Assembly: GCA_050084515.1 (NCBI GenBank)
Contig: CM114271.1
Span: 37,262,001 to 37,326,000 of the forward strand
Length of the DNA stretch: 64,000 nt
From: Blasia pusilla
Taxonomy: Eukaryota
Reading direction: 5' to 3'
Shown here: one piece after another, positions 1 through 50,185 of the stretch
Layout of the letters: each line of letters starts with the position of its first letter
Numbering within the stretch: position 1 is the first letter of the stretch
Position numbers and translations under genes: made by a program
Notes under the pieces: model-generated
What the model saw: the letters and a program-made list of their open reading frames with translations, nothing else
Databases searched by the model: none
Told to the model about the DNA's origin: nothing

Positions 1-908
1 CTGTCAAGTTTTACTGGAATGTTCAATTCCAAATATTTGTTGATGTCATTGTAGATTGTGAAGCTGTACACATTGTGCAACAAAAAATACTCAATTTGCA
101 GTTTCCAGTAAAAAGTTATAGTCAATCTTGCAAAATTGCCATTGCTAGGCAACTTTAGGGTTAAATTGTTCAAACCCTAAACCAGCCGCCACACCGGCGG
201 CGGCCGTCGCAGTCACCGTCATAGTCATCATCATCGGTCTACCGTCACCATCACTAGTCAACCATGACCTTCAATGTTCAACCGTCACCATCAACGGTCC
301 GTCGTCACCATCAACGGTCAACCATCACCGTCAACGTCAACGTCAACGTCAACGGTCCACCGTCGGCCGTTGCTGTTGCCCAGCGTTGCTTAGAGTCGCA
401 TTCAGCCGTTGTCCACCCTTTGGTTGCCATTGCCACTATTACGGAGTGCAGGGTCTTCCACGACGTTCGTTGATTCTCTGAATTGCATCGCCACCAAGTA
501 CTTTGTTTTGGTCGGCATCGTCATCGAAGTTTCGTCGTCAACCAATGACGGTAGATGACCTCTGGTTATGGTGTTTGAATTTTGATTTCATGCTGCTATG
601 TTGTGATTGGTAGCCGCTTGACGAAGATCGAGTACCATGCCGTGCGCTTGTAGCCACAACGCGCCGCCCATTGCCGCGCCGTGCCGCTCGTGGCCGCATC
701 GTACCGTCTCGATCGCGGAGTCGCACCGTCATTGTGGAGCAGAGTGTGGGTTTATTGTTGATTGAGGAGGGTATGCCACTGAGTGCTACATCCCACCATC
801 GAGGGCCGTGCCGTTCGTAGCCGTTCCGTGCCGCTTGCAACGCCGCACCGTTCCGCTGGAACCGCACTGTCTATGGAGGAGTTTTGAGCAGCGTCACTAC
901 AGGAGGAG
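1..908. repeat. Near-identical inverted copy of segments 44120-44375 and 45008-45632
   Basis: 1-~257 is the reverse complement of 44120-44375. 267-908 is the reverse complement of ~45008-45630. ORFs 538..867(-) and 45049..45378(+) are almost identical. Confidence 0.95.
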
Positions 909-1148
909 TATGACTTGCTGATTGGAGGAGTTGTCTCCACGACCGAGTTGGGGTTGAGATTTGTAGTTGCTGAGGAGCGACATCGACATGTGTTCAGGTT
1001 ACCTATTTTGGTCCTTTACCCTGCACGCGTGAGGGATTTTGGGATTTTGGGTAGTTTATTTGGGGATATTGGGTTGTGTGGATGCACGAGGGCCATCACA
1101 GCGTCCTTCAGGATTTTGAGAGGCGAGGTAGTGGACCTGAGAGTAGCT

Positions 1149-2420
1149 ATGGAGGGTTTACCCGGAGTGGTGCAAGGTTTTGAGGGTCTCCACGTGACAG
1201 ACCACCTCGATCTCCTTCTGTATTGTCTTCAGACAAGGGGGAGCGTGTAGAGAAGTGTGTTAGTGATCCATCGTACACATTGAGTGGTCCTACCAGTTGG
1301 GCATACAAGATGGACGACCGCGCTAGGGGACCGCATAGGTTTTCAAGTGCAGTAGGCACGATTGAGTTGCATGATTTCATAGCAGAGTTTAGGAGTTGGT
1401 GCGACTCCCAACGGGCCAGGAACTCTTGAGAGTTTAACCCTTTTACAACATGGAACGGTATGTTCCAACATTTAGCGAGGGTGCCCATGGATGATTACCA
1501 ATAGTTCTCTCAGAGATATTCACGTGAGATCGAGGCGTGGAGGCTCTACTATGACCCACATTATGTGTCATGGACGGAGCCATTCCCAGATGAGGAGGAG
1601 GTGTCAGGAGAGGCTACTTCCTCTTCCACTAGTGATGTTTTAGAGGGGTCACTCGCATGAGAGCGGTTGCACCAGCTAGTCGGGTTCGTCCCAAGTTCAA
1701 CCCTGTGGTTGAGTTCTTTGCTGAGTTGAGGGCGAGCTACTAGGGGATACAGACGGAGAAGTTGCGAAGCATCCACAACTTCCAGAGGTGCCCGTGTGAG
1801 AGTTTATGCGAGGCTTATACTCGCTTGCGCCGGTTGATCAATGTCACTCAAGGGGTGACAGAGGCTCAGGCTATCCAGTCATGGTACAAGATGTTGGACC
1901 AGACCCTGCGGACACGAGTGCGAGAGGGGGTGCTTCTTATGAACACCTCCCCTACGTTGAGAGATGTTTTTAGTACCACCCAGAATATTGAGCGCAACAT
2001 GGCGGAGGAGAGCATAGCCACCATGGGTTTTGGCGAGAGCGATCCACGATTGCTGCACTACCATGCGGCAAAGAACGTGGACTCCGAGATAGGTCGACTG
2101 TGGCACCACGAGCTCAGGGAGGATAGCGAGGGGCCGTGCCATAGAGACCTGCGCCTTCATATGCGGCTCAGCAACAGCCGCCTACTATTACTTGTTGGTC
2201 ATGTGGTGGAGCCCATCATCAGTACGATTGCACTCGTCAGGGTCATGGACGTGTGCCTCAACATGGAGGAGGAGATGGTGCTGCACTAGGAGGTTATTAG
2301 TGTGACTATTGTCAAAGGTATAGTCATACACGCACCAGGTGTTTCATTTTACATCTTGAGTTACGTCTCGACCGAGGGCCAGAGAGGGCACCAGAGTGAG
2401 TAGCCGGCCCGGGTGGGCCT
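1149..2420 (+). pseudogene. gag remnant
   Basis: Broken ORFs with retrotransposon gag-like text (ESLCEAYTRLRRLI, EAQAIQSWY) and degraded Cys/His knuckles at ~2190-2350. Confidence 0.7.
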
Positions 2421-2909
2421 AGAGATCGTGCACCAGGTGGTCCCATTGGGGGACGAGGAGCTGGAGTTTCTTGACAAGGTGGTGGAGCTGCCATGGAGGG
2501 GGTAGAGTCCCACCACCTAGACGCGTCGAGGGAGATGTCGGGCATAAGGCTAGGATGGCTGCTCAGATATATCAACTACAGAATAAGATTTCCGCTATGG
2601 CATTAAGATTACACGATGTCAGATCCGTGGCATCAACATCATATGGAGCAGCCAGAGATATGGAGGATCCTGGTTGGATGTGCGGGATTGCCCAGATGGA
2701 GGCACTCGTAGTTGTGATGTGTGGAGCATCCGCAGAGTTGGATCCACAGCGAGGGGAAGCCAGGAAATAGACTAGGCTTCCTCAGTCTTTCACATTGTCC
2801 GAGGCGATGAGGACCCCATCGATGGGTCCCGATCAGAGTTCTTGGAGAGTTGGTGATGTTGTTGGTGTGCAAGCACGGAGGGCTCGATAATCGAGGAGAG
2901 GTCTTCTAG

Positions 2910-3260
2910 TTGGTGAGTCCCGGAGATGGAGCTTTTAGTCCGAATCGCGTCTTGTTGGATTCAGGAGCACAACCCCTAATGTTGGGGAAAGTGTCATTCA
3001 GAGGATTGGGCTTAACGAGAGCCGATGTGGAGCGTTGTCCATTCCGGAAACAAACATCCTTGGGTGGAGCGAGTACCACACAATATATCACCCGACAAGA
3101 GGTTGTGGTGAGGATTCGCTCGGGACATCATATAGATGAGTCCGTGGTGTGAGCCAAGGCGATAGCGATTGATGCAGAGTCCTACAACGTCTTGGTTGGT
3201 GGAGCAATGTTATACCCGATGGGGTTTTCCATAGATTATTGAGCGTCCAACAGACCAGGA
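2910..3260 (+). pseudogene. Retroviral-type aspartic protease remnant
   Basis: RVLLDSGAQPLMLG (DSG catalytic motif), followed by YNVLVGGAMLY. Confidence 0.85.
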
Positions 3261-3600
3261 TGGCAGTGAGGTGATGGGCGCCTTAGCTCATTACCGGTTT
3301 GATTCACAAGTGCAGCGATCGAGCGACGGCCAAGAGAGGTGGCGACCTTAGCATCATTTAGCAGTGCCATCACTTGGCCTAGTGATTTGATTGAGGGACA
3401 TGTCCATGCAGAGGATACTCCCGTTCCTGAAATTTATATGGAGAGGAGTATTATGGTAGCCGCATCATTCCGTGGAGGAGAGGTGTTTGGATTGGAGCGT
3501 GACGAGTTTGAGGAACCCGAGGTAGCAAGGAGTGCTAAAATGCCCTTGGATACCACATCCATTGTGTGGTGTATCCTGGAGGAGGGTATTAGCATTGATG

Positions 3601-4165
3601 ACCAAATCAATGCTGGAGTTTTTGAAGAATGTGTCGATCTTAGGAGACTCCATGTCACGGGTGGTGACAAGTGCTCATTAGGTGCGTGCCTAGATCAACC
3701 CAACAGTGTTCTTGGATGCGGCGAGTGTAGGTTCTAGAGCCCATCGCCCGCGTCTACGGTGGACCAACTTGGTGCCCCATGTGGTGTTATGGAGGGCATA
3801 TGCGAGAGTGGAGTGCCCCTCCCATTTGTTAGTGGATTCCATTCAAGATCCAGGTCGTCGGTCACAGGTAGTGAGGCACGATGATCGACCAGCGTTGACA
3901 ATGGTCAACAGGGTAGGCAAGCTGCGGGCAACCTTTCCCACGTTCGTGAGTTTTCCCGCTTCCTATGCATATAAGGAGGCTGGTCCTTGCTTGGTTTGGG
4001 ATGACCAGGTTCAGAGGTTGGTGGAGCCCAACGCCGATGAGAGAGAGCAGGCGATGGGATTTCCCAGAGGAGTGACGGCAGTACCGTCAGTATTAGAGGC
4101 ATCACGACGCCATGTCTTGGGTTAGGTGATGGAGATGAATTGCTTGATATGGATCTTCAGCTTGG
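3601..4165 (+). pseudogene. C-terminal half of a DNMT3-like C5 cytosine methyltransferase domain inside pol
   Basis: One frame reads FLKNV (motif VI-like, ENV), FLDAASVGSRAHRPRLRWTNL (motif VIII), EREQAMGFPRGVT (motif IX) and RRHVLG*VMEMNCL (motif X). Confidence 0.82.
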
Positions 4166-4739
4166 GAGTGGCTGAGCAGCGTCGGAGGAGATCGTGACAT
4201 ATCATAGTGGTTGCGTTGGTGAGCCCCATGCCTACCGAGACGGCGGAGGTAGTGGCTGGGGGCGAGACCCGAGGAGATCGACACACCATGGGAGATCGGG
4301 AGAGACACCCTTGGACTTCTTGGGATGTTTTGCAGGTACAATAGGAGATGATAGCCACAACATCGAGCGTGGTTCAGGGCACTGCACGTGGAGGAGATCA
4401 GAGTTTGCAATTGGCTGCAGGAGAGCGGCCGAGTGTTGTTGTTTGAGACGGGGTTGCACAATAGCAACCACCGATACGCGCCCCGAAGAGTTCTACCGTA
4501 GTCACGATGGAGACTTGGGAGCCAGATATGGGCCCTAAGTTGACAGGAGGAGAGTGACACCGAATACATCAGTTCCTGAGGAGTTATAGGAGATGCTTTG
4601 TGTTCAGCATGGAGATTTGGATACGCTGAAGGGACCGGGGATCCGCATTGAGTTGTCGAGTGATACGCTGATCTTTGGACGACCCTACAGGTACAATGAT
4701 ATGGATAGGGCTCTAATTCACAGTAGGAGCCAGGACTTG

Positions 4740-5935
4740 GTCGGAGCAAGACTAGTGGAGATGTCGCATGGGGAGTATGCATCTGCCATTGTCATGCCCG
4801 CCAAGAAGGATGTGCATGGCAACTAGACGGATAGGCGGATGTGTGGGAATTACCGACCTATCAATCGGCAGACAAAGTCCGATAGGTATGCCATGCCCAT
4901 CGTTGAGGATATGTTTGATGCGAGTGGTCACGCAAAGGTATTCAGTTCATTGGATTTGCGAGCCAGATACCATCAGCTGCCTATCAGATTGGAGAAGAGG
5001 CAGAAGACGACATTTTGGGGCATCGATCCTCACGGGAAGGATTGTTTGTATCAGTGGCGGTTCTTACCATTTGGGTTAAATAACGCCCCGACTGAGTTTC
5101 AAAGGGTCATGGATAGGATCTTGGCTGGTCTGGATTTTGCTAAGTGTCATATTGATGACATCGTAGTCTTTAGCGCCACAGTTGAGGAACATGAGCGACA
5201 TCTAGAGGAGGTGTTTCGACGATTGCAATTACATGGGCTAAAGCTACATCCAGACAAGTGCAAGTTCTTCTACAATGAGATTGAGTACTGGGGTCATACG
5301 ATATACCCAAGGGGCCTTGGTTTTCATCAGACAAAGGTAGAGTCTATCTCACGCATTCCACGGCCTACAGATGTGAGCCGTGTTCGCGCATTCATGGGAT
5401 TGGCGAACTTCTATCGACGGTACGTCAAGGGATTCAGTTCGATTGCAAAGTTGCTGACCTTGCTGATCAAGGTGGATCACAAGTGGTACTGGGGGGATGA
5501 GCAAGAGCGAGCATTTCAATTGCTCAAGTATAGGTTGACGTCTACGCCCATCTTGAGGAGACCGATTAGGGGATGTCCTTTCCAATTGCACACAGATTGG
5601 AGCATGTTGGGGCTTGGAGCGGTGCTCATCCAACATGATGATGAGGGTAGAGAGTTCATGGTGGCTTACGCTAGCCGCTCGAACAACGATGCAGAGGCAA
5701 AGTACAGCTCGTATATGGGTGAGTGCTTGGCTGTAGTGTGGGTTGTCGCGCATTTCAAGTGTTACTTATTCGGCAACCCCTTTACCATCATCACTGATTA
5801 TCAACCATTGAAGTGATTGATGGAGTCCGACAAGCTTATAGGGAAGCTTGCGAGATGGGCTCTGTTGTTGTAGGAGTATGATTTTCAGATGGTACATAGA
5901 CTGGGACGCTTAACCAGGATGCACATGGGTTGAGT
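4740..5935 (+). pseudogene. Reverse transcriptase-RNase H (Ty3/gypsy)
   Basis: ORF 4839-5816 and flanks: MCGNYRPIN, DLRARYHQ, PFGLNNAP, HIDD, VRAFMGLANFYRRYV, TDWS, TDYQPLK. Confidence 0.95.
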
Positions 5936-6328
5936 CGTAACCCATGCCCGAGTCAGCGAGATGCGACTGGAGCTCGATGGCATGGAGAGAGTGATGAGGA
6001 GTTAGTGCCAAGATGGCACGCGTCAGCCTATTTAGACATTTTGGTTATGAAGAGCAAGAGTGTGGAGACTTCCATGATGAGGTCTAGTGGAGAATCCTTG
6101 GATCCTGAGGCCAGTGAGGAGACCACAGGTGGCCGAGATATTCATGATGATGGAGTAGTCTTGGAGTACCTTTGTACAGGTAGTGTTGCGAGCATCGTGG
6201 GTGCTAGAGAGCGGGATCGGATCCTACAGGGGGCCAGACGGTTCCGTTGGGAGGGGACACATGTTTTGAGGGTTTGGTAGGATGATAGAGTACGCGTAGT
6301 GCCGCATCCTTTGTAGAGAGCACGACTA

Positions 6329-6991
6329 GTGCAACATGCCCACGAGGAGTTGGGTCACTTTGGGGTGAAGCGGACGTATAACTTGCTCCAGATTCAGTAT
6401 TGGTGGCGAGGCATGCAGAATGACGTTCAACAGTTTGTTGCCCGGTGCATGCTGTGTGATCGGGTCCGAGCATTGTTTAATGCTCCAACTCCACAGTTGC
6501 ATCCATTACCTATCATGGGCTTAGGGTATAGATGGAGTTTGGATTTTGCAGTACCTTTGCCTTTGACGGAGCGTCATAGTCCTTATGTGTTGGTGATGGT
6601 CAAGCACTTCTCGAAGTGGATCGAGTTGGTTGCATTTCCTGACAAAGCAAGTGAGGGAGTAGCTTATGCCTTCCTTGACAGAGTGTTGAGTCATTATGGT
6701 GCACCGACTGAGGTGTTGATAGACCAGGTTACCGAGTTTCGCGGTGAGTTCCAGGCCTTGTGTGATTAGGCGCTGATCAACCACCGCACGACTTTGCGAG
6801 ATTATTTTGAGGCGGATGGATTAGCGGAGAGAGTTGTGCAGACGATGAATAGGGGTTTATGCAAGTTTGGCTTGCAAAGAGGTCACCTAGGAGATTGGGA
6901 CCTCCAATTGCCATGGTTGGCGATGGGATACAAATTCAGCACGCAGGCATCCTTAGCGTCTTTTTCACCGTACTTGCTACTTTATGGCTGA
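6329..6991 (+). pseudogene. Integrase (HHCC zinc finger + DDE core)
   Basis: AHEELGHFG...CMLC, WSLDFAVPLP, VLIDQVTEF, DGLAERVVQTM. Confidence 0.93.
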
Positions 6992-7002
6992 GAGCAACCA
7001 CG

Positions 7003-7107
7003 ATGCTAGTCTGTGATGGATGTTCGAGAGGTTGGCATATGGCATATCTGACGCCACCTCTCACTAGGGTTCCTCAAGGACGATGGATGTGTCCCACATG
7101 TACATAG
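7003..7107 (+). pseudogene. Partial PHD finger at the integrase C-terminus
   Basis: MLVCDGCSRGWHMAYLTPPLTRVPQGRWMCPTC matches the C-terminal part of the PHD consensus (LLCDxCxxxxHxxCLxPPLxxxPxGxWxCPxC). Confidence 0.85.
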
Positions 7108-7669
7108 AGGAGATACTAGGTAGGTTTTGATTCCGACTTTTTGTGTGACATGGATGATAGGAAGGCGACTAACAATGGGGCCACATGAGCACCCGACCTT
7201 TATGCTCTTAGCGTCCTACAGATGTATGTAATGGTAGGTAGGGATAGATGGCAATCTGGAATTAGAGGGACCTAACCACCGGCTAGGGTGGCGATTGGAG
7301 ATATTTTAGTACTTCTTGTCTCATTTTTTGGATGTCATGAGTTAGCATGGGATCGTACGTGTTTGTGTGTGTGTTCAGTGACAGCGATGTATGTTGTGTA
7401 GCGATGTGTATACGTACGACAGCTGTCACGTCTTTTAGGATATATAGGTGAGATCTAGTAGAGCGCCTTCGTAAGTAGTGGAGGACAGGCTTAGAAGGTC
7501 GAGGATGACCTGCTGAGGGCCCAAGAAACATGAGAGAGCAGGTTTCCCCTTCGTTTCGGCTCATTTGGAGCCATATTGAGCAGCTTACTATTTTAGGTAA
7601 GTACCATTTTGAGTATATGATCGACTTTCTATTTTGGTAAGTGGCCCTTGACCTCCTACATCAGGTCAA

Positions 7670-7936
7670 GAGCCAAGGAGGTGACTTGGGAGAATAGGCT
7701 ACCATAGAGAGAGCTTGGGAGAGGGGAGGGGTATACCTCAAGGAGAGAGAGCTTGAGAGCTCATTCTCTCTTTGTTGAACGTCTTCGCATGAGGCGGCGG
7801 AGCTATGGTCCCTTGCCTTGTGAGTGTAACCCAAGCCTCTTATTAGGAGAGTGGGTTTGGTTTGACATGAGAGAGAGTTCACACCTTTGAGAGCTATGGT
7901 GTGAGATGGTGTAGAGAGAGATTGGATCTTATTTTA
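7670..7936. repeat. Continuation of the same repeat (reverse complement of ~44745-45010)
   Basis: ORF 7661..7882(-) is almost identical to ORF 44798..45019(+). Confidence 0.95.
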
Positions 7937-8066
7937 ATTGGAGATATTTTAGTACTTCTTGTCTCGTTGTTTGGATGCCATGAGTTAGCATGGGATCGTG
8001 CGTGTTTGTGTGTGTGTGTTCGGTGACAGCGATGTATGTTGTGTACCGATGTGTATGCGCACGACA

Positions 8067-8511
8067 CTCGGAAGCAAAATCCTTATATACCAACGAGCCA
8101 AATCTTTGGTAGACTTTAAAATTCCTACAGATGCCATGTAATCTTGAAGATTCTTGCTCCTCCACAAAAATTGCTCCGTACTTTCTCCAACTAAAAACTT
8201 CTCGGACGTAAGTTGATTCCCAAGATTTTGAATCTGAGTCTCATTCATGGTTTCATACTAATTCTTCAGAATGTTCCACGCCTTAGCAGCAGTGGTCCTA
8301 TGTTGAATGAGAGTCTGTCACTAGATGAAGATGAACATGCATAACTCAAAGTAGCTTGTGGATTCGAGTCGACCCCTGTGGCCGCCTCCAAGATCTCAAA
8401 TGATTCGGGGATAATTCTCAAATTAAACTTCCATAATGTATAGTTAGACCCATCTAACTTCCCTTTACCTAGCATAGGAGGGCAATCACGAACTGACGAA
8501 GAAGTAGCCAT
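8067..8511 (-). pseudogene. Ty1/copia gag N-terminal fragment
   Basis: KLDGSNYTLWKFNLRI and GESTEQFL, typical of copia gag (UBN2-like). Confidence 0.7.
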
Positions 8512-13620: not shown

Positions 13621-16277
13621 CACTTGGTGCACAAGTACTATGGATCAAGAGGCCAACAAAATTTTTAGAAAAGCAACGCAAAAGGAAGTACAACATGAGA
13701 AGTTTAGAAGACCAATGGATTTTGGGAAAAATCAACCCACTCGAGAAGGACTTGCTTCAAACCAAAATAACTTATCACAAAAGGAAAAAGGGAGTTGATT
13801 TTGATCATGAACTACAAGACAATGATTTTGAGGATGACAAGCCTCCTCTGCCTGAATATTTTGGATGTGAATATATTTAGAAGTTGGCCTCGAGAATTGT
13901 AAGGCATGGCCGTCTAAACATGACAATCACACATCATAGAAGGATGTATGTGAGGATGACCAAAGAGGAGCAACCCAAGACCAAGCATGTGATTGGATGG
14001 AGAAGAACGTGGTTAGAGGAAGTCAACTAGATATGCAATATGCTATTAACGAAGCCAATATAGAAAATATTTTTCCTTCACTAAATTTGATGGAAAATAC
14101 TTCTATCCAAGGAGTTGGCACTAGGGAACAACCACCTCGTAGAGTAATCGACAAAGGGTTCATGTATTCTTTCGAACCTATCATTCCATTTGATGAGGGT
14201 ATTAGCCTAAAGTTAGAAGACTTTGAAACCCCATATCAATCTCTACAAAGAAAACCTAGATTTAATGCTAAGTCCAAAGGAAAAGTGGAATAAAATATTT
14301 ATATATCTTTATCATAGTCTCTTAGCATGCATCTTTTTGTACATATGCATGTTCAATTTCCCCAAGTCTGTAATTTTTACTCTTACTCTGGTTCCGAAAA
14401 AAATTGAAAGCAAATGTAAGTCAATTTTAAAGCAAAACTAAATGAAGAGGTCTTTCTAGAAGGGCAAAGTAAGATATATTAAGAAGAACGAATTGTGAAT
14501 TTTCCATTTGTTCCTTATAAATGATACTGACGTGAAACATTTTCTTCTTGTCCATATGAGTATTTTTAACAATGTTGAAAACTTTCATGCCCAATGTAAT
14601 TTCTAACCAAAGCTCCATAATGAAAAGGTCATTAAAGATTTATGTGATAAGATGAAATCAGGAGAAACAACTTGTGTACTTTTCATTCCTCCCATATACA
14701 TGATCTTCAATTGAGGCTTGTTAAAGTTGTTCACAAGAGTGTTTAAAATTCGTTTTCAAAATTTCAAGCCAAATAGATCTTCCGTCTAAAGCCCAAAAAT
14801 GAAAAAAGCATATAACCTTGCGATAAGATATCTTCTTAAAAAAAAAACTTTGCATGAAAATGTATCAAATGGAACTTTCATCCAAAGGCAAAAAATGAAG
14901 AGGTCATCGAGATCCTTGTGACAAGTTTTACTAAGGAAACATTACTTGGAAATTTTCATCTTTTCCAAATATATGATATGGAAATAAAACTTTGTCAAAA
15001 TTTATAAGAGTGGTTTCAATGTCTTGGAAAATTTGGAAGTCAAGTGGAAATCTATACTATTAAGCAAACATAAGGGGATTACTAAAACCAGAAAGACAAC
15101 TTTTTTCCACTTTCTATAAGAAGTGAAGCACGAGGTATTCGACCTTATGGAATCGGGGTACCTTACTACTCACATTAAAAGGCTTCGATATGCGAGGATT
15201 CTATTCACACAAGTGTTGATATGGAATTGGTTAGAGGCTTGTGAGGTGGTCATCCGTAGTTACTTTCCAAGGCTTTGGCTCTCACATGTGCGTATGAGGT
15301 ACTGGCTACGGGGTTGTGAGGCCCTCACCTGCATATAGTTATTGTAGTAATTTTGTATAATTGTGGAATATTACAGGAGATTCGGGAGATCTCGAAGTTA
15401 GAGCCCAAGTTGGAGTCTTGGGTGGAAGGAAGGTGTGGAAGGAAGCTAAACAAGCCGAAGATCCGAAAAGCCCTGCTTCGATCCAAATGTGAGATTTGTG
15501 ACATTCCAACTTGCTCAATCCTAAGCATTGTGACGATTCACATTTGAGGCTTGCAAGAATGCTGTTTAGCGCATGTTGGCTATCTTGCGTGTACTCACCT
15601 GAATGTAGCATGTTGGCTATCTTTCATAGAAAACTAACTCCTCCCATAGAGATGCAAAGTTCCCAAACCAACCCAAATTATGAAGACTGTGTAGGAGATC
15701 ACCTTATGGTTTCCCAATCTTTGCCTATGAATTCTAAGTTCTTGACGTTGGACACGTTCTCGGTTATTTCTTAGGCAATTATGATATTCTCCCATTTTCT
15801 AAGACGGAAAAGCGGATGGGTCCCATGTTTATCCATGGCTCATATGCGATTCCGCCTAAAATCGACCGCGAAGAGAGTCGCATACATAAAGTATTTTGCA
15901 CCAAGAGTTCGCCTTAATTATTATCAAGATTAAATCCGAGAGAGTTTCTGGAGATGCATGTGGCATCCTTTGGATGGTATTCTTCGTAGCGCCTCCTTCC
16001 GTCGACGCCCACTACAACACTATGCGTCAACCTCAGGAACATGCGCTCGTCAATTATCATATCAGCAATCTAACTTTGGGCACCACAGACCAGAGGAGGA
16101 CATCGCGTAGGCTTTAGTTAGTACCCGTGCACCAATTCAGCAACGGACGAATTTCACAACAAAGAGATCTAGAGACACATACAAGCTACATGCGAGTCTT
16201 GGAGCTTAATCGAATGTCTGCTCTAGAAAGTTCACAAGATTACTAGCTTAGATTCTGCTCACCAGATTTCAACTGAA

Positions 16278-19400: not shown

Positions 19401-21586
19401 GTCCCACATAATATCATAGGAAAAATTGGGAGATCTTGAAAGATATAAGGGATCAAAATACCTTGCATCAAGATATAATGATGTCTCATCAATAGTATTC
19501 TCTCCTGATGTAGTATTTGCCAAGGTATATGATGTGGCATCAGATCCTTTGTACACATACTTATAAAAGTACTTTACTGCCAAGATGCTATTTGTTATCT
19601 CCAGATTGATATGACAATCAAATAAAGTACATAACATTGGATTGTATGGAACCACCCAACGATTATCAAAGTCATGATTTGACTTATTAATCAATCTGCC
19701 ATTATCACGCCCGCATAAACACATCTAGAAGTATGTTAATAGTTGGGGAAAAAAGATAGCACACTAATAGAAGAACATTAAATGACAAAATAAACAACAA
19801 AACCAATGAATTACCTCTTATAAATAGGATATCCATCCTCATTCTCCATTTTCATTGATGCAAAGGGCATTGGGTATCCTTTGGAACACTTTTTGTCCTT
19901 TTATCCGTGCAAGGTGTAGTTGGATGTGCTACTCCACACGGACCATGAATCATACAATTTCTTACAGTAGAATGTAGCCTAGGATGAGTCATGGGATTCG
20001 GAATCTCTGCATATATGATATCGTCAAAATCAGAGGTTGTCCTTGGCTTATCCTTAGAAGCAAGAATAATTAGGATATGCACATGTGGTAGCCCTCTCTT
20101 TTAGAACTCGACCACATGAATGCATCCTACCACTCGACCCAAAATATGCTTATCCAATATAAGTCTCAACAACCCCTTCTTCTTTTGTTGGAAAATACGT
20201 ACAACCAGGTCAGGACGATCAGACGTTGATTGCCCATGAAGCAGAGCAGAAGTAATCTCTGGCCATTTAGGATTGCAAGTGATAGTCAAAAAGTAGTCAG
20301 GCTTCCCAAAATGTCTCACAATGGCCATAGCAGCATGGTACAATTGATGCATGTGACGCGGTCCTCCTATGAAAGATGAAGGTAAGATAATACGTCTTCC
20401 TATGCCTTGACCGTTCACATCATGCCGAGTCATGGCATCTCTGACACCTTGGTATAAATCAGCTCTCAACTCTTTTTGATGCAATCGTATCCAAGTTAGC
20501 CATTGCATTTCGATAGTCGCATACATATCCACCATATATTCTTGAGTAAGATGACCAAACCTCAACAACCAATTATTATCCATAGCATTAGCTCGCATTT
20601 GAAGTCTGAATGAAGCAAATTGTAAAGCTGTAATGGTCTTTGAACTCGCCTCATGAGTGGTAACCTCACCTTGAATTCCTCCTTGTACAATATAATCTCT
20701 ATCTTCGTCCATCATAGCATCCCCTCTTAACGACAGATCATCTCTATGATCATGTTGCCCTTGCAAAGGTATCCCAGGATGCCAACCTGCTTCACCATAA
20801 ACAAAAGGAAAAACAAAGTGCAATGGGATATATGCTTCATTCAAGTCGATGACATTTAATCCCTCCTCCATGTAAGCGAACAATAATATCACGTCCTTCT
20901 ACTGGCTCAATCCCATCTCCATGCAAGATAGTTGCAATCTCTGAAGCAACAGGCAAGGTGTATCGTTTTGCATCGAGATCTCGCTTAGTACCCTTAAGAA
21001 CAATATGAAAGTCAGAATTACATGGATCAATAGCCACATTTCGAAATAAAGCCACATATGGATTATGGGCATGTAACATATCTTGTAATCCCCTTAAGAT
21101 CTCTGGCCTCAATTGATCCCGATAATCTCCACTCATAATCCTTCTTCTATGTTCCATCTGATGCTCATCATCATGAATATAAATTTGCACAAATTGTGGA
21201 GGAGCACCACTTTCAGCATGAAGAGGTCCAATAGAATGATATACACCACCTTGAATCCTGAAGTTTCGTGTACCGCCTCGTTGCTCTGTCACATGTGCCC
21301 CAATAGATGCCAATTGAAGAGCACTATTATAGGCACCTACATTACGCAAAAAATGAAGACTATTTGAACTCATACCAGAAAGTAATTCTGCTAGTATAGA
21401 AGGTGAAGCTGTCAAATATGGTAATTGAATCTTACCATGCCCACAACACATACTAAAAGGAGAGCTTATAAACCTAGTATACTTCACTCTCTCATGCTTC
21501 CAATGTAGAGCATTGCAAGTCGGACAAACAACATTCATAAGTCCAACACTAAAACGACCAGTCATTCTATAAATACGATCTCCCAA
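16415..21586 (-). pseudogene. Helitron RepHel coding region (multi-exon)
   Basis: ORFs 20837-21586, 20101-20892, 19852-20082, 19296-19724, 18568-18984, 17450-17770 and 16415-16786, separated by AT-rich introns, frameshifts and stops. Confidence 0.92.
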
Positions 21587-45632: not shown

Positions 45633-47239
45633 AACTCTCTTCCAAAGTTGGAGGAGGAGCAATGCCTTGTGGGTCGTTATCATAGCATAGTAACATTAAT
45701 CAAATGTGAACCTATTGATCATATTTTGGATGCACTTCGAGTAAATGGAAGCTCCATCATAGTTCTCAACCATAATGGTCGGTCCATCCACATATTACAT
45801 ACAAGCATACGCTCATACACTTGCCACACAATCAGGAAAATAAATTTCTCTACTCGTCATGTTGTCGGATAACCTAGGGCACTCAACATAATACTCCATA
45901 AGCTCCCAAATGTGGAATGCCCTTATCCCATGTGTGGAGATTTTAATGCCTTATTGGTCATATTCAACCCTATTGTTGTGGCCCTCATAGCCCAACATGC
46001 GATGATGCAAAACATAAAAACTCTAGTGAGCTCACATTAGGATGTCAACACGTCAGCTCGCGTGTCAGAGTCCCTAGAATGAGATTTGAGTTGTAAGAAA
46101 TATGCAAGCCATGTTGGGCATCTCAAGTGATGATGTAACCTAATAAACTAGACCAAATACCAAGCAAGACTTGAGAGAAGCTTAAGTCCCACAAGAGCTG
46201 GGCACCAAAAGGATTACAACCGGACTTGGAACATGACTAAGCGTTTGGGGGTTTGCCACATTTGATGTCATAACGGATAGATCCAAGATTCTTTTGGGAT
46301 GAATAAGGTGGTGTTGGAAAGCTTACAAGAAGAAAATTCCAATGCACTAAAGATTCACACAAAGGCATAAGAAGAGATTGAGAAACCATCCCTAAACTAT
46401 CAGAATGAAAGTTGGCTTGAGGGCCACAAGGAGCGTCCTAAGAGGACTTACCCAAATGTAGGGAGGGGGGGAGATCTCTATACCTATATATAAGGGGGAG
46501 GGTATCCAATAAAGTCTAGGACCCCACCTTGGAGAACCATGGGGATCAAGCAAGGGCATAATGACTACAACACTTGCAACCACCAAAATGCAATAGCACA
46601 CACTCCCCTCTCCTCCCTCTCTATAATGGAGTTCTTCCAAGCTAAAGAGTCCCCAATATTTTAAGCAAAGATTGGGTAAGAGTGTACGAAAGTTACATGT
46701 GAGTTGATCATTGCTACTCACGGAATGAGAGAGGCGCATGAAATTCAACATTGATACGGCATTTTAGATAAAGAGCTCGGGGGAGAGATTAGACGGAATG
46801 TTGCTAAAAACAACAATGCCCATATTACAGATGGTCTTCAAGTTGTTTAAGCGGATTGAGCTCAACATGAACGAGGAGCATGTAAAGACCACCTGATTCC
46901 CATGAGAGTTAGGAAGTCCACAAGTGTTAGTAGCCTACAAGTTTCCCAACATATACAAATCCATAACAGCGATTCAATGAGTAGAACGCATATCTTGAGC
47001 CCATGAGGAAATGGTCAATGCAACATACATTGGTCAACAGGGATCAAGTTTGGTCTAGTGGACATGTGGTGGATCCCATAGAGGGGGGGGATTGTAGACA
47101 ACATGAAGAATAGTGGGGTGTAGAGAGCACCTTACATGGCTCAAGAAACACCTCACATGGCACTACCACAATCATAGAGTGATGATTATGTTTGTGTGAT
47201 ATTATATAGATGTGAGAGTATTTGTAATGTTACATACAT

Positions 47240-48445
47240 CTATTAGGGGTTGCGCATTCGAATTGCATGTAGATTGGAGCATGTTTGGTCTAGGAGTGAT
47301 GCTTACTTGGAGAGATGACAAGCAAAGAAAGTTCATTGTGGCTTATGCGAGCCTATCAAACAATATTGCATAGGCAAAATACAACTCCTACAAGGGAGAG
47401 AACTTAGTTGTAGTGTGGGGTGTGGCACATTTCAAGTTGCTACATATTTGGCGATCCTATCATGCTCATCGTTGATCATCAACCATGGAGATGGTTGATG
47501 GAGGTCGACAAGCTTACATGGAAGATTGTGAAGTGGGCTCTACTACTATTGGAGTATGACTTTAGATGGTTCATAGGCGAGGACAGTTGAACAAAGATGC
47601 AGATAGTTTGATCATGAGTTGAAACCCATGCATGAGTTAGAGAGACAATACAAAACTTAGATGGCCTTGAGAGAGTGATGAGGAGACGATGCTCGATTGG
47701 AGTGCATCTACCTTCCTTTGTTGGTTGACTATGCCAAGCCAACCGTAGGTCCCGGCTCCAATAGTGAGCCGTATGATAAGTCTTCAATTCCAAAGGTCAA
47801 TGAGGAGGCAATGTGTAGTCATGATATCCATTATGATATGAAGGTTTTGGATCCCCTACTTACTAGCATCACAATAAGCATAGTGAGTACTAAGAAGTGA
47901 GACTAATTCCTACGAAGAGACTAGAGGCTTGGGTGGGAGCTGACACACCTTTTATGATAGCGGGGGAATGATAGGGTGTGGATGGTGCCTCATCCTTCCT
48001 AGCAATCATGTGTTGTGTGACATGCCCATGAGGATTTGGGGCCTTCTATAGTAAAGCATACTTACAACTTCCTCTAGTTTTGGTATTGGGGATATACATA
48101 CTGAGATTTAGCTTTTTATAACCAGATGTATGGTTTGTGAACAAGTAAGAGCATCCTTTAATGCTCCCAATCTATAGCTATATCCTTTGATGATTGTGAG
48201 GTTAGGCTCTCGTTAGACTTTATGGGCCCCTTGCCATTAACACGTCATCATCAAAGATATATGTTGTTCATGGTGTAGCATTCCTCCAAGTGGATAGATT
48301 TGGTGGCACTAATGGACAAGGTAAGCAAGATAGCAACTTGTGCATTTTTTGATCGCATGTTTACTCATTATGGTGCATCAACGAAGGTGGTTACAGAAGA
48401 TGGTACCAAATTTAGAGGGAAGTTTCAAGCCTTGTGTGATCAAGG
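47240..48445 (+). pseudogene. Decayed Ty3/gypsy RNase H-integrase of the same family as 909-7669
   Basis: DNA colinear with 5570-6770 (gattggagcatgtt, gtggcttatgc, gcacatttcaag, catgcccatgagga, gccttgtgtgat). Confidence 0.88.
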
Positions 48446-48539
48446 TGGAGTAGTAAGAGGAGACAAAGAGAGGAGAGAAGAAACTATCCTCAACCCAAAG
48501 AGATACTTTTTAAGAGAGTTTCTTGTGATTTGAAAGATG

Positions 48540-50185
48540 TCTTGTGCTAACGCATTGCTACACAATCCTCATCGCAGGTCAAATCTACACATCACGCAAC
48601 ACCAATCTTCCCAACGTATAGGTAGATCCCTTCATATACAAAACTAACTCGCGCATATATATTGAGACCCCACAACAAAAATCAGAGTAAAAAGCGCTCA
48701 CTTGACCTAAGACTCAATTCCTAAATCTACATCAGCATATCGAGCCACACCCACCCTCTGCTCTGAGGGAATCCGGATGCTGGCACCCTAGTTCCTACCT
48801 ATACAAGCAAGAGAGGTGCTCCCAAGGCCCAACATGAGAAAGATTGCTTGAGATATCCATCTCTCCCTCTCTTATACCTTGAGAAGAGCCTTTTGGCTCT
48901 TCCTCCAAAAATAGCCATCCCAACCGTAATCTACGTGCACCTTCATAGGTTTCCAGATGACTGTTGACTCAATCAACGGATCACCTAGCTGACAAAGACC
49001 AAAATAGAGAGATTATCATAGATAATGTTCTCGATGCAAGAGACTTGTTGCCAATATCATCCGACATCTTAGGACGAAGCCACATCCGAATAGCCCGTTG
49101 ACCCTCTATGTCGTTAATGCAATAGAACTCTACCAACGTCCAACTAAGATGTGACAATTATTATGCGCAAACACATGGCTACAAAATCCACATCATTGGT
49201 CATATCTACACACCACACAACATCAATCTTCCCAACGCACTGGTTGATACATCCATAAACAAAATGAACTCACGCATATACATTGAGACCCGGCAACCGC
49301 CCCCCTAGCTGAAATTTGGGTCCCCCTAACTCCAGATGGCACTCACATACCTACCTAACATGATTTACTATCCTACACACATCTAGCACCATCACTGCCA
49401 TCGTCCTTGCAACACGGCAACACTATAGCCATATGTCGTGTTGATCCCTCCAAAGAGATCTAGCACTCTCGTACTGTACTCCAACGCTGCCACGCAACAT
49501 ATGTAGTACCCAAAGATATGAAATCACCAATCTAAGAGCACGATTGTCACCCGACTCTATATGCTCTAATAGATAGGCATGGCTCCACACATACCTCATA
49601 AGTTCGTCTGCACTCCAAGCATCTCAATGCTCGTTCCCAACAATAGTAAATAGGTCTTTGCACCATGGGAAGAGACATCTACTCTAGCATGTCTCTCCGC
49701 AATGGGAATTTCCTTTGCGTGTGTGCTCCTCTCTAACAACTCTCTTGATAAGCTAAAACCACATGTGAATGTTGCCAACGTGGTCATCGTATCCTCATGT
49801 GGTCGAACACTACTATCTTATGCAAATTGCACTTGTAGATGGCTTACCCTTCCATCATCTGATCGCCACCCTGGCCCATAAGAAACCGTCTCCTTCAAAA
49901 AATCCAAGATGAAACCAAGGGGGTACAACACCATAATCTCTACCAACATATCACATGACTTTGTCAATGTTGTAATCACCCGAGTGCGCACTATCGCACT
50001 ATCAGACTTATGCTCTGCTTGGAGTCTAACCACCACCTCCTTTCAAGTCATGTATTGCATGGATGATGCACCCCCAATAGAGGTCCGTATCTAAAAGGGA
50101 AAATGCTCAATATCGCCTTTCCGTAAACCCAACGTAGAACACATTGCCTTCCCTAACATCAAGGGCTACAGATTATAATCAATGC
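48540..50185 (-). mobile_element. Internally deleted Ty3/gypsy copy: protease region, methyltransferase motif I, then PPT and LTR-like sequence
   Basis: ORFs 49818-50036 and 49596-49787 parallel 3100-3450. RVLDLFGGINT is at ~49469-49437. The PPT region gctaggggggcgg matches 7250-7293, followed by TG at ~49295. Confidence 0.8.

What the first reader, a model, noticed from the sequence alone, without database searches (positions are those of the whole stretch)
3540..4165. Ty3/gypsy pol carries a DNMT3-like cytosine methyltransferase between protease and RT
Seen: about 1.5 kb of extra coding-like sequence separates protease (~2910-3260) from RT (~4740), where gypsy elements normally have only a short linker. 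One frame gives FLKNV (KNV 3625-3633), DAASVGSRAHRPRLRWTNL (3715-3771), EREQAMGFPRGVT (4039-4077) and RRHVLG*VMEMN (4105-4140). Established: these match C5-methyltransferase motifs VI, VIII, IX and X in the right order. They are closest to the DNMT3 type (recalled DNMT3A: DAKEVSAAHRARYFWGNLP, EMERVFGFPVHYT, RQRLLGRSW). To my recollection, retrotransposon-borne DNMTs have been reported in dinoflagellates and the charophyte Klebsormidium; I do not know of a characterised land-plant family. Inference: the active family packages its own methyltransferase, perhaps methylating its cDNA or insertion sites. This copy has stops and appears to have lost motifs I-IV by a deletion near 3590.
Basis: partly seen in the sequence, partly recalled or inferred. 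Interest (0 to 1): 0.93.

Follow-up and report, generated by a model that had tools for sequence, protein, structure and literature searches.

The report
Decayed DNMT3-carrying gypsy retrotransposon copy
This is a broken copy of a plant retrotransposon family that carries its own DNMT3-type DNA methyltransferase gene, a kind so far described only in the alga Klebsormidium but here found to be common and transcribed in liverworts and peat mosses.

Summary
The 143-aa frame 3694-4125 has 517 relatives at E<=1e-3, the best at 7e-44. Alone it matches neither Pfam PF00145 nor any solved structure. Its intact relatives do: the family profile hits DNMT3A at 9e-27, ahead of DRM at 4e-17 and M.HhaI at 2e-10. 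A folded relative matches DNMT3A/B/C only.

The order gag-CCHC, protease, DNMT, RT, RNase H, integrase is the family norm. RT follows the DNMT in 49 of 54 metagenome loci with enough flank, and single 2138-2188-aa frames exist.

Named relatives come from Marchantia, Calypogeia, Riccia, Sphagnum, Closterium and Klebsormidium. The Klebsormidium protein shares the CCHC-PR-DNMT order and a clade. So this is the land-plant branch of the published Gypsy-DNMT3 lineage, not a new kind.

The window copy is dead. About 124 aa holding motifs I-V are lost at 3597-3618, ENV reads KNV, and there are three in-frame stops. RNA reads 90-95% alike show that other copies are transcribed. What the enzyme does remains inference.

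The parts
1..1303 (+). 5' leader of the element. The 5' repeat A1 is inferred to lie off-window, about 370 bp to the left. A 20-bp tandem repeat lies at 224-337.
   Evidence: In a paralogue at 45010-44119 (-) the last 267 bp of the A repeat are followed by 368 bp and then by a 98% copy of 1-257. RNA and DNA reads that end at 7936 run on into the first letters of that 368-bp stretch.
1304..2378 (+). gag with a CCHC zinc-knuckle remnant (about 2301-2378). Broken by stops and frameshifts.
   Evidence: tblastn: P0312 residues 2-69 match 1304-1540. Marchantia P0286 residues 9-246 match 1325-2031 at 51-55% identity and residues 290-354 match 2151-2363. P0163 residues 5-30 match 2301-2378.
2883..3467 (+). 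Aspartic protease, with DSG at about 2958-2966.
   Evidence: P0163 residues 287-554 match 2883-3602 and P0286 residues 604-812 match 2847-3467. Pfam Asp_protease_2 reaches only E 0.14, below its cut-off.
3468..3596 (+). Protease-DNMT linker. It ends in PLDTTSIVWCILEEGISI (3543-3596), the stretch that precedes motif I in intact relatives.
   Evidence: Aligned to P0163 '...NTTTILWQYPDEGVCV|LDLFGG' and to P0013 'PLDTSTVQLATPPEGITV|VELFGG'.
3597..3618 (+). Deletion joint with a frame change. About 124 aa (about 370 bp) holding motifs I-V (FxGxG to after PC) are missing.
   Evidence: About 129-131 residues of P0163, between about 553 and 683, have no counterpart. The reading frame changes between 3596 and 3619.
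3619..4182 (+). C-terminal half of a DNMT3-type methyltransferase domain. It holds motif VI as KNV (3625-3633), motif VIII (3715-3771), motif IX (4039-4077) and motif X (4105-4140). TAG stops lie at 3679, 3691 and 4123.
   Evidence: (69% identity to Calypogeia P0156). In 133 full-length relatives the E of ENV is kept in 132, and the D of motif X in 132; the window has E there.
4183..4589 (+). DNMT-RT linker, conserved up to about 4398, with further stops.
   Evidence: P0156 residues 449-703 match 3619-4398. Stops at 4195, 4342, 4444, 4462 and 4555.
4590..5906 (+). Reverse transcriptase and RNase H.
   Evidence: Pfam RVT_1 1.9e-27, RT_RNaseH_2 1.3e-30 and RT_RNaseH 7.1e-25 on frame 4827-5816. 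64-68% identity to Marchantia P0292 and P0299.
6116..6994 (+). Integrase (H2C2 zinc domain and rve core). A deletion of about 470 bp lies at 6991/6992 relative to relatives.
   Evidence: Pfam Integrase_H2C2 3.2e-17 and rve 4.7e-9. Window 6905-6991 matches L073 13790-13876 and window 6992-7294 matches L073 14349-14637. Loose read ends at 6995 and 6998.
6997..7101 (+). PHD finger at the C-terminus of the integrase.
   Evidence: Pfam PF00628 E 6.4e-8, 32.9 bits against a cut-off of 24. The same domain is in relatives P0039, P0063 and P0029.
7294..7424 (+). Repeat B1, the first copy of the short split direct repeat, directly before the 3' long repeat.
   Evidence: 92% identical over 130 bp to 7937-8066. 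Homologous to the B1 stretch of L073, L056 and L040.
7425..7936 (+). Repeat A2, the 3' long terminal repeat, starting TGTCACG.
   Evidence: The start is set by homology to the relatives' junction '...CGCACGACAGC|TGTCATGACC'. The end is set by the start of B2 and by the junction to leader sequence seen in the paralogue and in reads.
7937..8066 (+). Repeat B2, the second copy of the short repeat, taken as the 3' end of the element.
   Evidence: The same A1...B1-A2-B2 layout is in L073 (B1 14637-14751, B2 15091-15205, 93%) and L056 (88%).

Best explanation
What it is. The window holds the right-hand 8.07 kb (1-8066, + strand) of a Ty3/gypsy-type retrotransposon. Its Gag-Pol reads gag-CCHC, protease, DNMT3-type cytosine-C5 methyltransferase, RT, RNase H, integrase, PHD finger. 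It ends in split direct repeats (B1-A2-B2).

Its lineage. It belongs to the streptophyte Gypsy-DNMT3 lineage first described in Klebsormidium nitens. Relatives are numerous in liverworts (Marchantia, Calypogeia, Riccia) and Sphagnum mosses.

This copy is a fossil (shown).
- The methyltransferase has lost motifs I-V, which hold the SAM pocket and the catalytic Cys, through a deletion of about 370 bp at 3597-3618.
- The invariant Glu of ENV is Lys.
- Three TAG stops interrupt what remains.
- gag, pol and the integrase C-terminus carry further stops, frameshifts and a deletion of about 470 bp.
- It can therefore make no enzyme.

How intact members most likely work (inferred, not shown). The DNMT domain is translated inside Gag-Pol and so travels with RT and integrase. 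It uses S-adenosylmethionine to methylate the newly made double-stranded cDNA, so that a new insertion arrives already methylated. I put this at about 35-40%. Alternatives are action in trans on host chromatin at or near the insertion site (about 20%), self-limitation of copy number, and RNA methylation. The PHD finger on the integrase probably tethers integration to a particular histone H3 tail state, as chromodomains do in chromoviruses (inferred).
For: Homology.
- 517 relatives at E<=1e-3, best 7e-44.
- 69% identity to a Calypogeia protein that carries PF00145.

Enzyme type.
- The P0013 domain hits DNMT3A at 6e-13, DRM at 7e-6 and HaeIII/HhaI at 5-7e-4.
- The profile of 18 relatives hits DNMT3A at 8.6e-27, DNMT3B/C at about 1e-24 to 1e-25, DRM at 4e-17 and HhaI at 2e-10. 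No DNMT1 is among the 57 sequences at <=1e-3.
- The AlphaFold model of P0164 has pLDDT 86. Every listed Foldseek match (to rank 50) is DNMT3A/B/C, best E 1.8e-18 and TM 0.84.

Architecture.
- Single frames: P0053 (2188 aa) reads CCHC-PR-DNMT(978-1226)-RT-RH-IN, and P0344 (2138 aa) reads the same.
- The window is collinear with them and with Marchantia models.
- In the 80 metagenome loci, RT lies within 1.5 kb downstream of the DNMT in 49 of 54 loci with enough flank. PR lies upstream in 45 of 57.

Constraint.
- In 133 full-length domains the catalytic Cys is kept in 126. ENV is kept as E in 132 and N in 130. The two Arg of RxR are kept in 128 and 131, and the G and D of motif X in 131 and 132, at overall identities down to about 35%.
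- DNMT identity to Marchantia (52-55%) equals that of gag and PR (44-55%). RT is 64-68%.

Lineage.
- In the DNMT tree the window sits in an 18-row liverwort, moss and metagenome clade (support 99).
- Closterium and Klebsormidium proteins join in successively wider clades (support 96).
- Klebsormidium GAQ93235.1 reads CCHC-PR-DNMT.

Repeats. The A1...B1-A2-B2 layout is in L073 and L056, and B1-A2-B2 is in the window. This fits the 2018 legend's wording that the Klebsormidium element has the repeat structure of a DIRS retrotransposon (PMC5890265, section 9 read).

Expression. Two RNA runs with the same species label as the best DNA holder each gave about 3800 reads at >=88% likeness. Most were 90-95% alike. 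First mates lay roughly 10:1 on the minus strand, which means sense transcripts in the usual library type. The reads cover the DNMT region at depth 17-33.
Against: - The window fragment alone gives no Pfam or PDB hit, so its identity is transitive.
- No copy with an uninterrupted PR-DNMT-RT frame was seen among the 80 bryophyte-type metagenome loci. The longest stop-free frame through the DNMT is 451 aa, and only 2 of 46 full-length DNMT regions lack stops.
- The pairwise Nei-Gojobori dN/dS of the DNMT region (0.54; 46 loci, 721 pairs) cannot be told from the same columns read out of frame (0.52 and 0.64). It is no evidence of selection.
- The tree has no host DNMT3, DRM or DNMT1 outgroup and was made with FastTree only. 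One capture, as against several, is therefore not proven.
- The one published activity test of the Klebsormidium domain in yeast showed no methylation. The authors called it inconclusive (PMC5890265, section 10 read).
- A1 is not in the window, so the 5' end is inferred.
- No PBS or PPT was looked for. The letters before A2 are not purine-rich.
Confidence: 0.87

Rival explanations
1. The bryophyte branch is extinct as a mobile element. All copies are decaying fossils, the RNA is read-through or silencing-related transcription of dead copies, and the DNMT domain has no present function in land plants.
For: - 44 of 46 full-length DNMT regions in the metagenome loci carry 1-14 stops.
- No uninterrupted PR-DNMT-RT frame occurs in the 80 loci.
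- The window copy is dead.
- B1 and B2 of this copy are only 92% alike.
- dN/dS is inconclusive.
Against: - RNA reads run roughly 10:1 in the sense direction over the whole element, and most are 90-95% like this copy. They come from other copies.
- Several Marchantia gene models of 961-1278 aa keep all six motifs, e.g. P0286, P0293 and P0295.
- L004 and L006 have stop-free DNMT frames of about 450 aa.
- Metagenome contigs sample only part of a genome.
Confidence: 0.3
2. Land-plant gypsy elements captured a DNMT3 independently. The likeness to the Klebsormidium element would then be convergence, as for dinoflagellate DIRS-Dnmt3.
For: - Retrotransposons have taken up DNMTs more than once (PMC5890265, abstract and sections 9 and 11 read).
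- My tree lacks host outgroups.
- A second domain order, RT-RH-DNMT-IN-PHD, exists in chlorophyte elements.
Against: - The domain order CCHC-PR-DNMT is the same in Klebsormidium, Closterium and bryophyte proteins.
- They share family-specific motif forms such as GWPCQ/GFPCQ, AHRxRxWWTN, ERERAMGF and LGxxMD.
- The clades nest in an order that follows host relationships, with support 96-99.
- The split-repeat layout is shared (PMC5890265 Fig. 4 legend).
Confidence: 0.08
3. A host DNMT3 fragment was captured once by this single copy, or a host gene happens to lie beside a transposon.
For: None after testing.
Against: - The segment sits at the same place in 49 of 54 (RT side) and 45 of 57 (PR side) independent loci.
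- It also lies inside single 2138-2188-aa frames.
Confidence: 0.01
4. The motif likeness is chance in non-coding linker sequence.
For: No Pfam or PDB hit for the fragment alone.
Against: - 229 relatives at E<=1e-10, best 7e-44, over the full 143 residues.
- 52-56% identity over 254-263 aligned columns to P0163 and P0156.
Confidence: 0.005

Closest known systems
KnitGypsy-Dnmt3 of Klebsormidium nitens (de Mendoza et al. 2018, PMC5890265; sections 9-11 read)
   Same: - A DNMT3-type, non-rearranged methyltransferase lies inside the Pol frame of a gypsy element.
- The K. nitens protein GAQ93235.1 (P0100) reads CCHC-PR-DNMT like the window and shares a DNMT clade with it.
- The repeats have a DIRS-like split layout (and the paper's Fig. 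4 legend).
   Different: - The host is a land plant; the closest named relatives are liverworts.
- The window copy is decayed.
- A PHD finger follows the integrase. The word PHD does not occur in the 2018 main text.
- Whether GAQ93235.1 is one of the published copies could not be checked, because the supplements are closed.
Unnamed chlorophyte elements with the order RT-RNase H-DNMT-integrase-PHD (e.g. Scenedesmus sp. 'pol' KAF8056149.1, Cymbomonas KAK3250090.1)
   Same: The DNMT domain is homologous (E about 1e-16 to 1e-20 to the window frame). They have the same integrase with a C-terminal PHD finger.
   Different: The DNMT lies after RNase H, not before RT. The two orders separate almost cleanly on the DNMT tree: 2 changes where 1 is the minimum.
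SymbioDIRS-Dnmt3 of dinoflagellates (PMC5890265)
   Same: A DNMT3-type domain lies inside a retroelement Pol, flanked by split direct repeats. It is the only retroelement DNMT shown to methylate CG de novo in yeast (section 10 read).
   Different: It is a DIRS element with a tyrosine recombinase instead of a DDE integrase, in an unrelated host lineage. The authors regard it as an independent capture.
Host DNMT3A/3B/3C (animals) and plant DRM
   Same: The catalytic fold and motif order I-IV-VI-VIII-IX-X match DNMT3.
   Different: - There are no PWWP or ADD domains.
- The element domains are about 20-23% identical to DNMT3A/B in the structural alignment.
- The stretch between motifs VIII and IX is longer: about 89 residues against 64.
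- The domain is not circularly rearranged as in DRM.
Chromoviruses (Ty3/gypsy elements with a chromodomain on the integrase; from my own knowledge)
   Same: A chromatin-reader module is fused to the integrase C-terminus.
DAM-LTR and EpiLTR elements (bioRxiv 10.64898/2026.05.21.726589; passages read)
   Same: They are gypsy-type elements that carry DNA methyltransferase modules. The preprint lists the streptophyte Gypsy-DNMT3 as a known case.
   Different: Those carry adenine methyltransferases. Where they hold a DNMT, it is reported as sister to DNMT4.

Membership tests
C5 cytosine methyltransferase, DNMT3 type | Significant profile match of the sequence itself to PF00145 or to a solved DNMT | tested here: not met
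   The window frame 3694-4125 matches 0 Pfam families at E<=10 and has no real PDB hit. Identity is transitive, through relatives at E 7e-44 that match PF00145.
C5 cytosine methyltransferase, DNMT3 type | Motif I (FxGxG, SAM binding) and motif IV (PC, catalytic Cys) | tested here: not met
   Both are deleted in the window at 3597-3618. They are present in relatives: Cys in 126 of 133, and the second G of motif I in 131 of 133.
C5 cytosine methyltransferase, DNMT3 type | Motif VI ENV | tested here: not met
   The window reads KNV (AAG at 3625). Relatives have E in 132 of 133.
C5 cytosine methyltransferase, DNMT3 type | Motifs VIII, IX and X present, in the DNMT3 order | tested here: met
   SRAHRPRLRWTN, DEREQAMGF and LG*VME align column by column with relatives and with DNMT3A in the relatives' alignments. 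Motif X carries a stop, and E stands in place of the near-invariant D.
C5 cytosine methyltransferase, DNMT3 type | Closer to DNMT3 than to DRM, DNMT1, DNMT2 or bacterial enzymes | tested here: met
   Tested on relatives. The profile hits DNMT3A at 8.6e-27, DRM at 4e-17, HhaI at 2e-10 and DNMT2 at 4e-7, with no DNMT1. All listed Foldseek matches are DNMT3A/B/C. There was no tree with host enzymes.
C5 cytosine methyltransferase, DNMT3 type | Catalytic activity on DNA | not testable with these tools
   The window copy cannot be active. For the family, the only published test (the Klebsormidium domain in yeast) was negative and called inconclusive.
Streptophyte Gypsy-DNMT3 retrotransposons (KnitGypsy-Dnmt3 type) | DNMT3-type domain within the Pol frame of a gypsy element | tested here: met
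   There are single frames in P0053 and P0344. The window is collinear with them but broken. RT follows the DNMT in 49 of 54 loci.
Streptophyte Gypsy-DNMT3 retrotransposons (KnitGypsy-Dnmt3 type) | DNMT domain groups with that of Klebsormidium elements | tested here: met
   In the FastTree tree of 134 rows, K. nitens P0100 and P0131 join the clade that holds the window, with support 96. There is no outgroup and no bootstrap.
Streptophyte Gypsy-DNMT3 retrotransposons (KnitGypsy-Dnmt3 type) | DIRS-like split direct repeats (A1-internal-B1-A2-B2) | tested here: inconclusive
   B1-A2-B2 is present in the window. The full layout is in L073 and L056. A1 of the window copy lies off-window.
Streptophyte Gypsy-DNMT3 retrotransposons (KnitGypsy-Dnmt3 type) | [quoted passage not shown] | tested here: inconclusive
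   NG86 gives 0.54 in frame against 0.52 and 0.64 out of frame. Motif conservation across 133 domains argues for constraint.
Ty3/gypsy (Metaviridae) LTR retrotransposon | Pol order PR-RT-RNase H-integrase with a DDE integrase | tested here: met
   RVT_1, RT_RNaseH, Integrase_H2C2 and rve occur in that order. Protease identity rests on homology to relatives, because the Pfam match is weak (E 0.14).
Ty3/gypsy (Metaviridae) LTR retrotransposon | Two identical long terminal repeats with PBS and PPT | tested here: inconclusive
   Only the 3' repeat A2 is in the window. Relatives have A1 and A2 of about 340 bp at 86-94% identity, plus the extra B repeats. PBS and PPT were not examined.

The most novel reading that the evidence does not exclude
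Bryophytes, including the genetic model Marchantia, carry a still-transcribed branch of an ancient green-lineage gypsy family. Each element would bring three things: its own working DNMT3-type de novo methyltransferase, a PHD-finger integrase, and DIRS-like split repeats despite a DDE integrase. Intact members would methylate their own cDNA or insertion site. They would be the first transposon-encoded DNA methyltransferases known in land plants, inherited from streptophyte algae over more than 450 million years.
Probability: 0.3. Interest if true: 0.8.

Novelty: new member of a known kind. Interest (0 to 1): 0.58.

Why it matters
DNA methylation is the host's main weapon against transposons, so a transposon that carries its own de novo methyltransferase is a paradox. 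Its purpose is still unknown. The one published test of the streptophyte enzyme, the Klebsormidium domain in yeast, was inconclusive.

This work shows that the same lineage is abundant in liverworts and Sphagnum, is annotated only as 'hypothetical protein' in Marchantia, and is transcribed in this host. That moves the question into plants where knock-outs, methylome maps and transposition assays are routine.

The family also combines a DNMT3 catalytic domain with a PHD reader on the integrase, and it uses split direct repeats with a DDE integrase. Both are unusual for gypsy elements.

In eight full-text searches I found no paper describing these elements in land plants. Subscription journals and supplements were not searchable.

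Tried and rejected
- Own genome: none is held for this window, so I could make no census of copies in the host. Earlier findings were not open.
- Fragment alone: Pfam and PDB searches found nothing.
- Selection test: pairwise Nei-Gojobori dN/dS was run on single-HSP codon alignments from the metagenome loci. DNMT gave 0.54 (46 of 80 loci, 721 pairs with dS 0.05-1), RT 0.38 (16 loci) and PR 0.66 (27 loci). The same columns read out of frame gave 0.52 and 0.64, 0.55 and 0.77, and 0.33 and 0.53. I rejected it as evidence either way. The differences are mostly post-insertion decay with a strong transition bias.
- Boundaries: I first read 909-7669 as a clean insertion, because 284-908 and 7670-7936 are contiguous in a paralogue at 45632-44744. 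I dropped this reading for three reasons. The relatives show that the 3' repeat starts at 7425. B2 follows at 7937. Reads and the paralogue show that 7936 joins to leader sequence. The paralogue is better read as a permuted, internally deleted copy.
- Terminal repeats: I looked for LTR likeness between 850-1800 and 7050-8300 and found none.
- Sequencing runs: no RNA holder was listed by the index search. The RNA evidence comes only from laying raw reads of runs added by species label.
- Loose read ends at 3485 first suggested a second deletion in the linker. The alignment shows only local divergence and small gaps of 3, 14 and 5 aa.
- Not attempted: a tree with host DNMT3, DRM and DNMT1 references (no tool gave me those sequences), a PBS/PPT analysis, and classification of the RT among named gypsy clades.
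Full report
1. THE OBSERVATION

- FLKNV at 3619-3633
- DAASVGSRAHRPRLRWTNL at 3715-3771
- EREQAMGFPRGVT at 4039-4077
- RRHVLG*VMEMN at 4105-4140

TAG stops lie at 3679, 3691 and 4123.

The 143-aa stop-free frame 3694-4125 matches no Pfam family on its own, even at E<=10. It has no real PDB match either, so a direct PF00145 test fails.

It is nevertheless a conserved protein segment. phmmer against 1.84 billion representative proteins found 517 relatives at E<=1e-3, 229 at <=1e-10 and a best of 7e-44. Many of these relatives carry PF00145 just upstream of the matched part.

2. WHAT THE DOMAIN IS

I used three tests on intact relatives.
- The domain of P0013 (typed as stored) hits DNMT3A at 6e-13, tobacco DRM at 7e-6 and HaeIII/HhaI at 5-7e-4.
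- A profile of 18 relatives (A1) hits DNMT3A at 8.6e-27 and DNMT3B/3C at about 1e-24 to 1e-25. It hits DRM at 4e-17 to 2e-14, M.HhaI at 2e-10 and DNMT2 at about 4e-7. No DNMT1 is among the 57 sequences listed.
- An AlphaFold model of P0164 has pLDDT 86 and pTM 0.87. Every listed Foldseek match, to rank 50, is DNMT3A, 3B or 3C, with best E 1.8e-18 and TM 0.84 on the target.

The motif order is the plain I-IV-VI-VIII-IX-X, not the rearranged DRM order.

In 133 full-length domains taken from 337 matching proteins, the key residues are conserved as follows:

| Residue | Kept in (of 133) |
|---|---|
| Catalytic Cys | 126 |
| ENV, Glu | 132 |
| ENV, Asn | 130 |
| RxR, first Arg | 128 |
| RxR, second Arg | 131 |
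| Motif X, Gly | 131 |
| Motif X, Asp | 132 |

Overall identity among these domains falls to about 35%.

3. ANATOMY OF THE ELEMENT

Long single frames show the architecture.
- P0053 (2188 aa) reads CCHC, protease, DNMT, RT, RNase H, integrase.
- P0344 (2138 aa) reads the same.

The window is collinear with these and with Marchantia gene models:

| Part | Window coordinates |
|---|---|
| gag | 1304-2378 |
| Protease | 2883-3467 |
| DNMT remnant | 3619-4182 |
| RT and RNase H | 4590-5906 |
| Integrase | 6116-6994 |
| PHD finger (PF00628, E 6e-8) | 6997-7101 |

A scan of metagenome contigs with P0164 found 160 stretches that encode a relative, and the best 80 were kept.
- RT lies within 1.5 kb downstream of the DNMT in 49 of the 54 loci with at least 1.5 kb of downstream flank.
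- Protease lies within 0.9 kb upstream in 45 of the 57 loci with at least 1 kb of upstream flank.
- The misses are mostly a subfamily only 42-48% identical to the query.

So the segment is the family norm, not a one-off capture.

4. THE TERMINAL REPEATS

Relatives L073 and L056 have a long repeat at both ends. A1 and A2 are about 340 bp and 88-91% alike. They also have a short repeat directly before and directly after A2. B1 and B2 are about 115 bp and 88-93% alike.

The window has the same 3' layout:
- B1 at 7294-7424
- A2 at 7425-7936
- B2 at 7937-8066

This is the split-repeat layout of DIRS-type elements. The 2018 paper's Fig. 4 legend says that the Klebsormidium element has "the same" repeat structure as a DIRS retrotransposon.

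A1 is not in the window. A paralogue at 45010-44119 (-) shows the end of A followed by 368 bp and then by a copy of 1-257. RNA and DNA reads that end at 7936 continue into the first letters of that 368-bp stretch. I therefore infer that the element's 5' repeat lies about 370 bp left of the window.

My first reading, a clean insertion at 909-7669, was wrong. See Tried and rejected.

5. STATE OF THIS COPY

P0163 residues 287-554 align to 2883-3602 and residues 684-929 to 3619-4377. The residue-level alignment shows that the window keeps the linker up to '...EEGISI' (3596). That stretch directly precedes motif I in relatives. The window resumes at 'FLKNV' (3619) in another frame.

About 124 aa (about 370 bp), holding motifs I to V, are gone. 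Further damage:
- The invariant Glu of ENV is Lys.
- Asp of motif X is Glu.
- Three TAG stops fall where the aligned relative P0156 has Gln, Trp and Gln.
- More stops follow up to the RT.
- gag and pol are broken in several frames.
- About 470 bp are missing at 6991/6992.
- B1 and B2 are 92% alike, which suggests an old insertion (inference).

6. WHOSE FAMILY IT IS

Named sources of close relatives:
- Calypogeia fissa, 69% identity to the window frame
- Marchantia polymorpha, with at least 15 gene models of 949-1333 aa, most called 'hypothetical protein'
- Riccia sorocarpa
- four Sphagnum species

Further out are Closterium spp. and Klebsormidium nitens. Further still are chlorophyte elements in which the DNMT sits after RNase H.

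On a FastTree tree of 134 DNMT domains:
- The window falls in an 18-row bryophyte and metagenome clade (support 99).
- Closterium proteins join in a wider grouping of 58 rows, whose own fork has low support (47). Two Klebsormidium proteins then join in a 63-row clade (support 96).
- The two domain orders need 2 changes, where 1 is the minimum.

The Klebsormidium protein GAQ93235.1 reads CCHC-PR-DNMT. No vascular plant appeared among the named sources I saw. Only the best 150 of the 517 hits were visible, so absence from vascular plants is not shown.

I infer a liverwort or other bryophyte from the closest relatives.

7. EXPRESSION

Two stranded RNA runs carry the same coded species label as the best DNA holder. 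Each gave about 3800 reads at >=88% likeness.
- Only 15-16 reads per run were 99% or more alike. About 2400 per run were 90-95% alike, so the RNA comes from other copies.
- First mates lie roughly 10:1 on the minus strand. In the usual library type that means sense transcripts.
- Coverage spans the whole element, including the DNMT remnant at depth 17-33.

Genomic contigs of the same species pile up on the stretch in great numbers, most over the A repeat. The tool warns that this depth is not a copy number.

8. SELECTION

My pairwise dN/dS test is uninformative. The in-frame value of 0.54 cannot be told from the out-of-frame controls of 0.52 and 0.64.

The case for constraint rests instead on three points:
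- near-invariant catalytic residues across deep divergence;
- DNMT identity between the window and Marchantia (52-55%) on a par with gag and protease (44-55%);
- long open frames in algal-type members.

Against present activity in bryophytes: only 2 of 46 full-length DNMT regions in the metagenome loci lack stops. None of the 80 loci has an open PR-DNMT-RT frame.

9. MECHANISM

Shown: the domain is a DNMT3-type fold encoded inside Gag-Pol between protease and RT.

Inferred: it is packaged with RT and integrase and methylates new cDNA. This is the idea of the 2018 discussion. I put it at about 35-40%.

Alternatives are methylation in trans near insertion sites, self-limitation of copy number, and RNA methylation.

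The only published assay of the streptophyte domain was negative and called inconclusive.

The PHD finger probably targets integration to a histone state, by analogy with chromoviruses (from my own knowledge). This copy does nothing.

10. COMPARISON AND NOVELTY

The finding works like, and by my tests belongs to, the streptophyte Gypsy-DNMT3 lineage of de Mendoza et al. 2018 (PMC5890265; abstract and sections 9-11 read).

Later papers mention only 'streptophytes', citing that work:
- PMC12344493, passages read
- bioRxiv 10.64898/2026.05.21.726589, passages read

Eight full-text searches found no description in liverworts or mosses. A liverwort TE survey (PMC9985172) holds none of the words methyltransferase, methylase, DNMT or PHD. 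Subscription journals and all supplements were out of reach. The supplements of the 2018 and 2025 papers may list bryophyte sequences.

Verdict: a real feature, correctly read by the first stage. It is a new (land-plant) member of a known kind, and this particular copy is dead. The family-level lead is of moderate to good interest.

Noticed in passing
window 6997-7101; also relatives P0039, P0063, P0029, P0246: A PHD finger (PF00628, E 6e-8) follows the integrase, where chromoviruses carry a chromodomain. It occurs in both domain-order types of the DNMT-bearing elements. The word PHD does not occur in the 2018 paper's main text.
   Followed up: partly
window 7294-8066; L073 14637-15205; L056 14514-15082: The family has split direct repeats (A1...B1-A2-B2) like DIRS/PAT elements, although it encodes a DDE integrase. 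The letters before A2 are not a purine-rich tract. How such an element replicates is unexplained.
   Followed up: partly
window 45632-44119 (- strand): A permuted 1.5-kb paralogue reads [copy of 284-908][copy of 7670-7936][368 bp][copy of 1-257], at 97-98% identity. Both of its ends fall in or beside the 20-bp tandem repeat at 224-337. It looks like an internally deleted one-repeat circle or tandem form of the element, opened in the tandem repeat.
   Followed up: partly
relatives P0039, P0063, P0029, P0089 (no window coordinates): A second architecture, RT-RNase H-DNMT-integrase-PHD, has a homologous DNMT. Named sources are the chlorophytes Scenedesmus and Cymbomonas. Chromochloris and Haematococcus proteins, and a Mesostigma protein with only PF00145, also matched, but their domain order was not worked out. 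The two orders form nearly separate clades on the DNMT tree.
   Followed up: partly
window 49671-50189 (- strand): A second protease fragment of the same family (34-39% identity to P0163 and P0286). No DNMT, RT or integrase of the family lies next to it.
   Followed up: no
window 47227-48452 (+ strand): RNase H and integrase remnants of a different gypsy family, 66% DNA identity to 5565-6766.
   Followed up: no
window 20101-20898 (- strand): An open frame with a Helitron_like_N domain (PF14214, E 4e-47). This is a Helitron transposon remnant.
   Followed up: no
window 909-7424: The sense strand of the element is G-rich and C-poor (G 31%, C 20%; GC skew 0.14-0.24), against a background of about 38% G+C. 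Against the genomic contigs of run X1 the window has A or T where the contigs read G or C at 254 places, and the reverse at 145. That suggests excess C-to-T and G-to-A decay in this copy.
   Followed up: partly
protein P0208 (no window coordinates): One relative is labelled as a DNA cytosine methyltransferase of a 'Candidatus Obscuribacterales' metagenome bin, on a 2.4-kb contig. It is most likely a plant or algal contig mis-binned into a bacterial genome.
   Followed up: no
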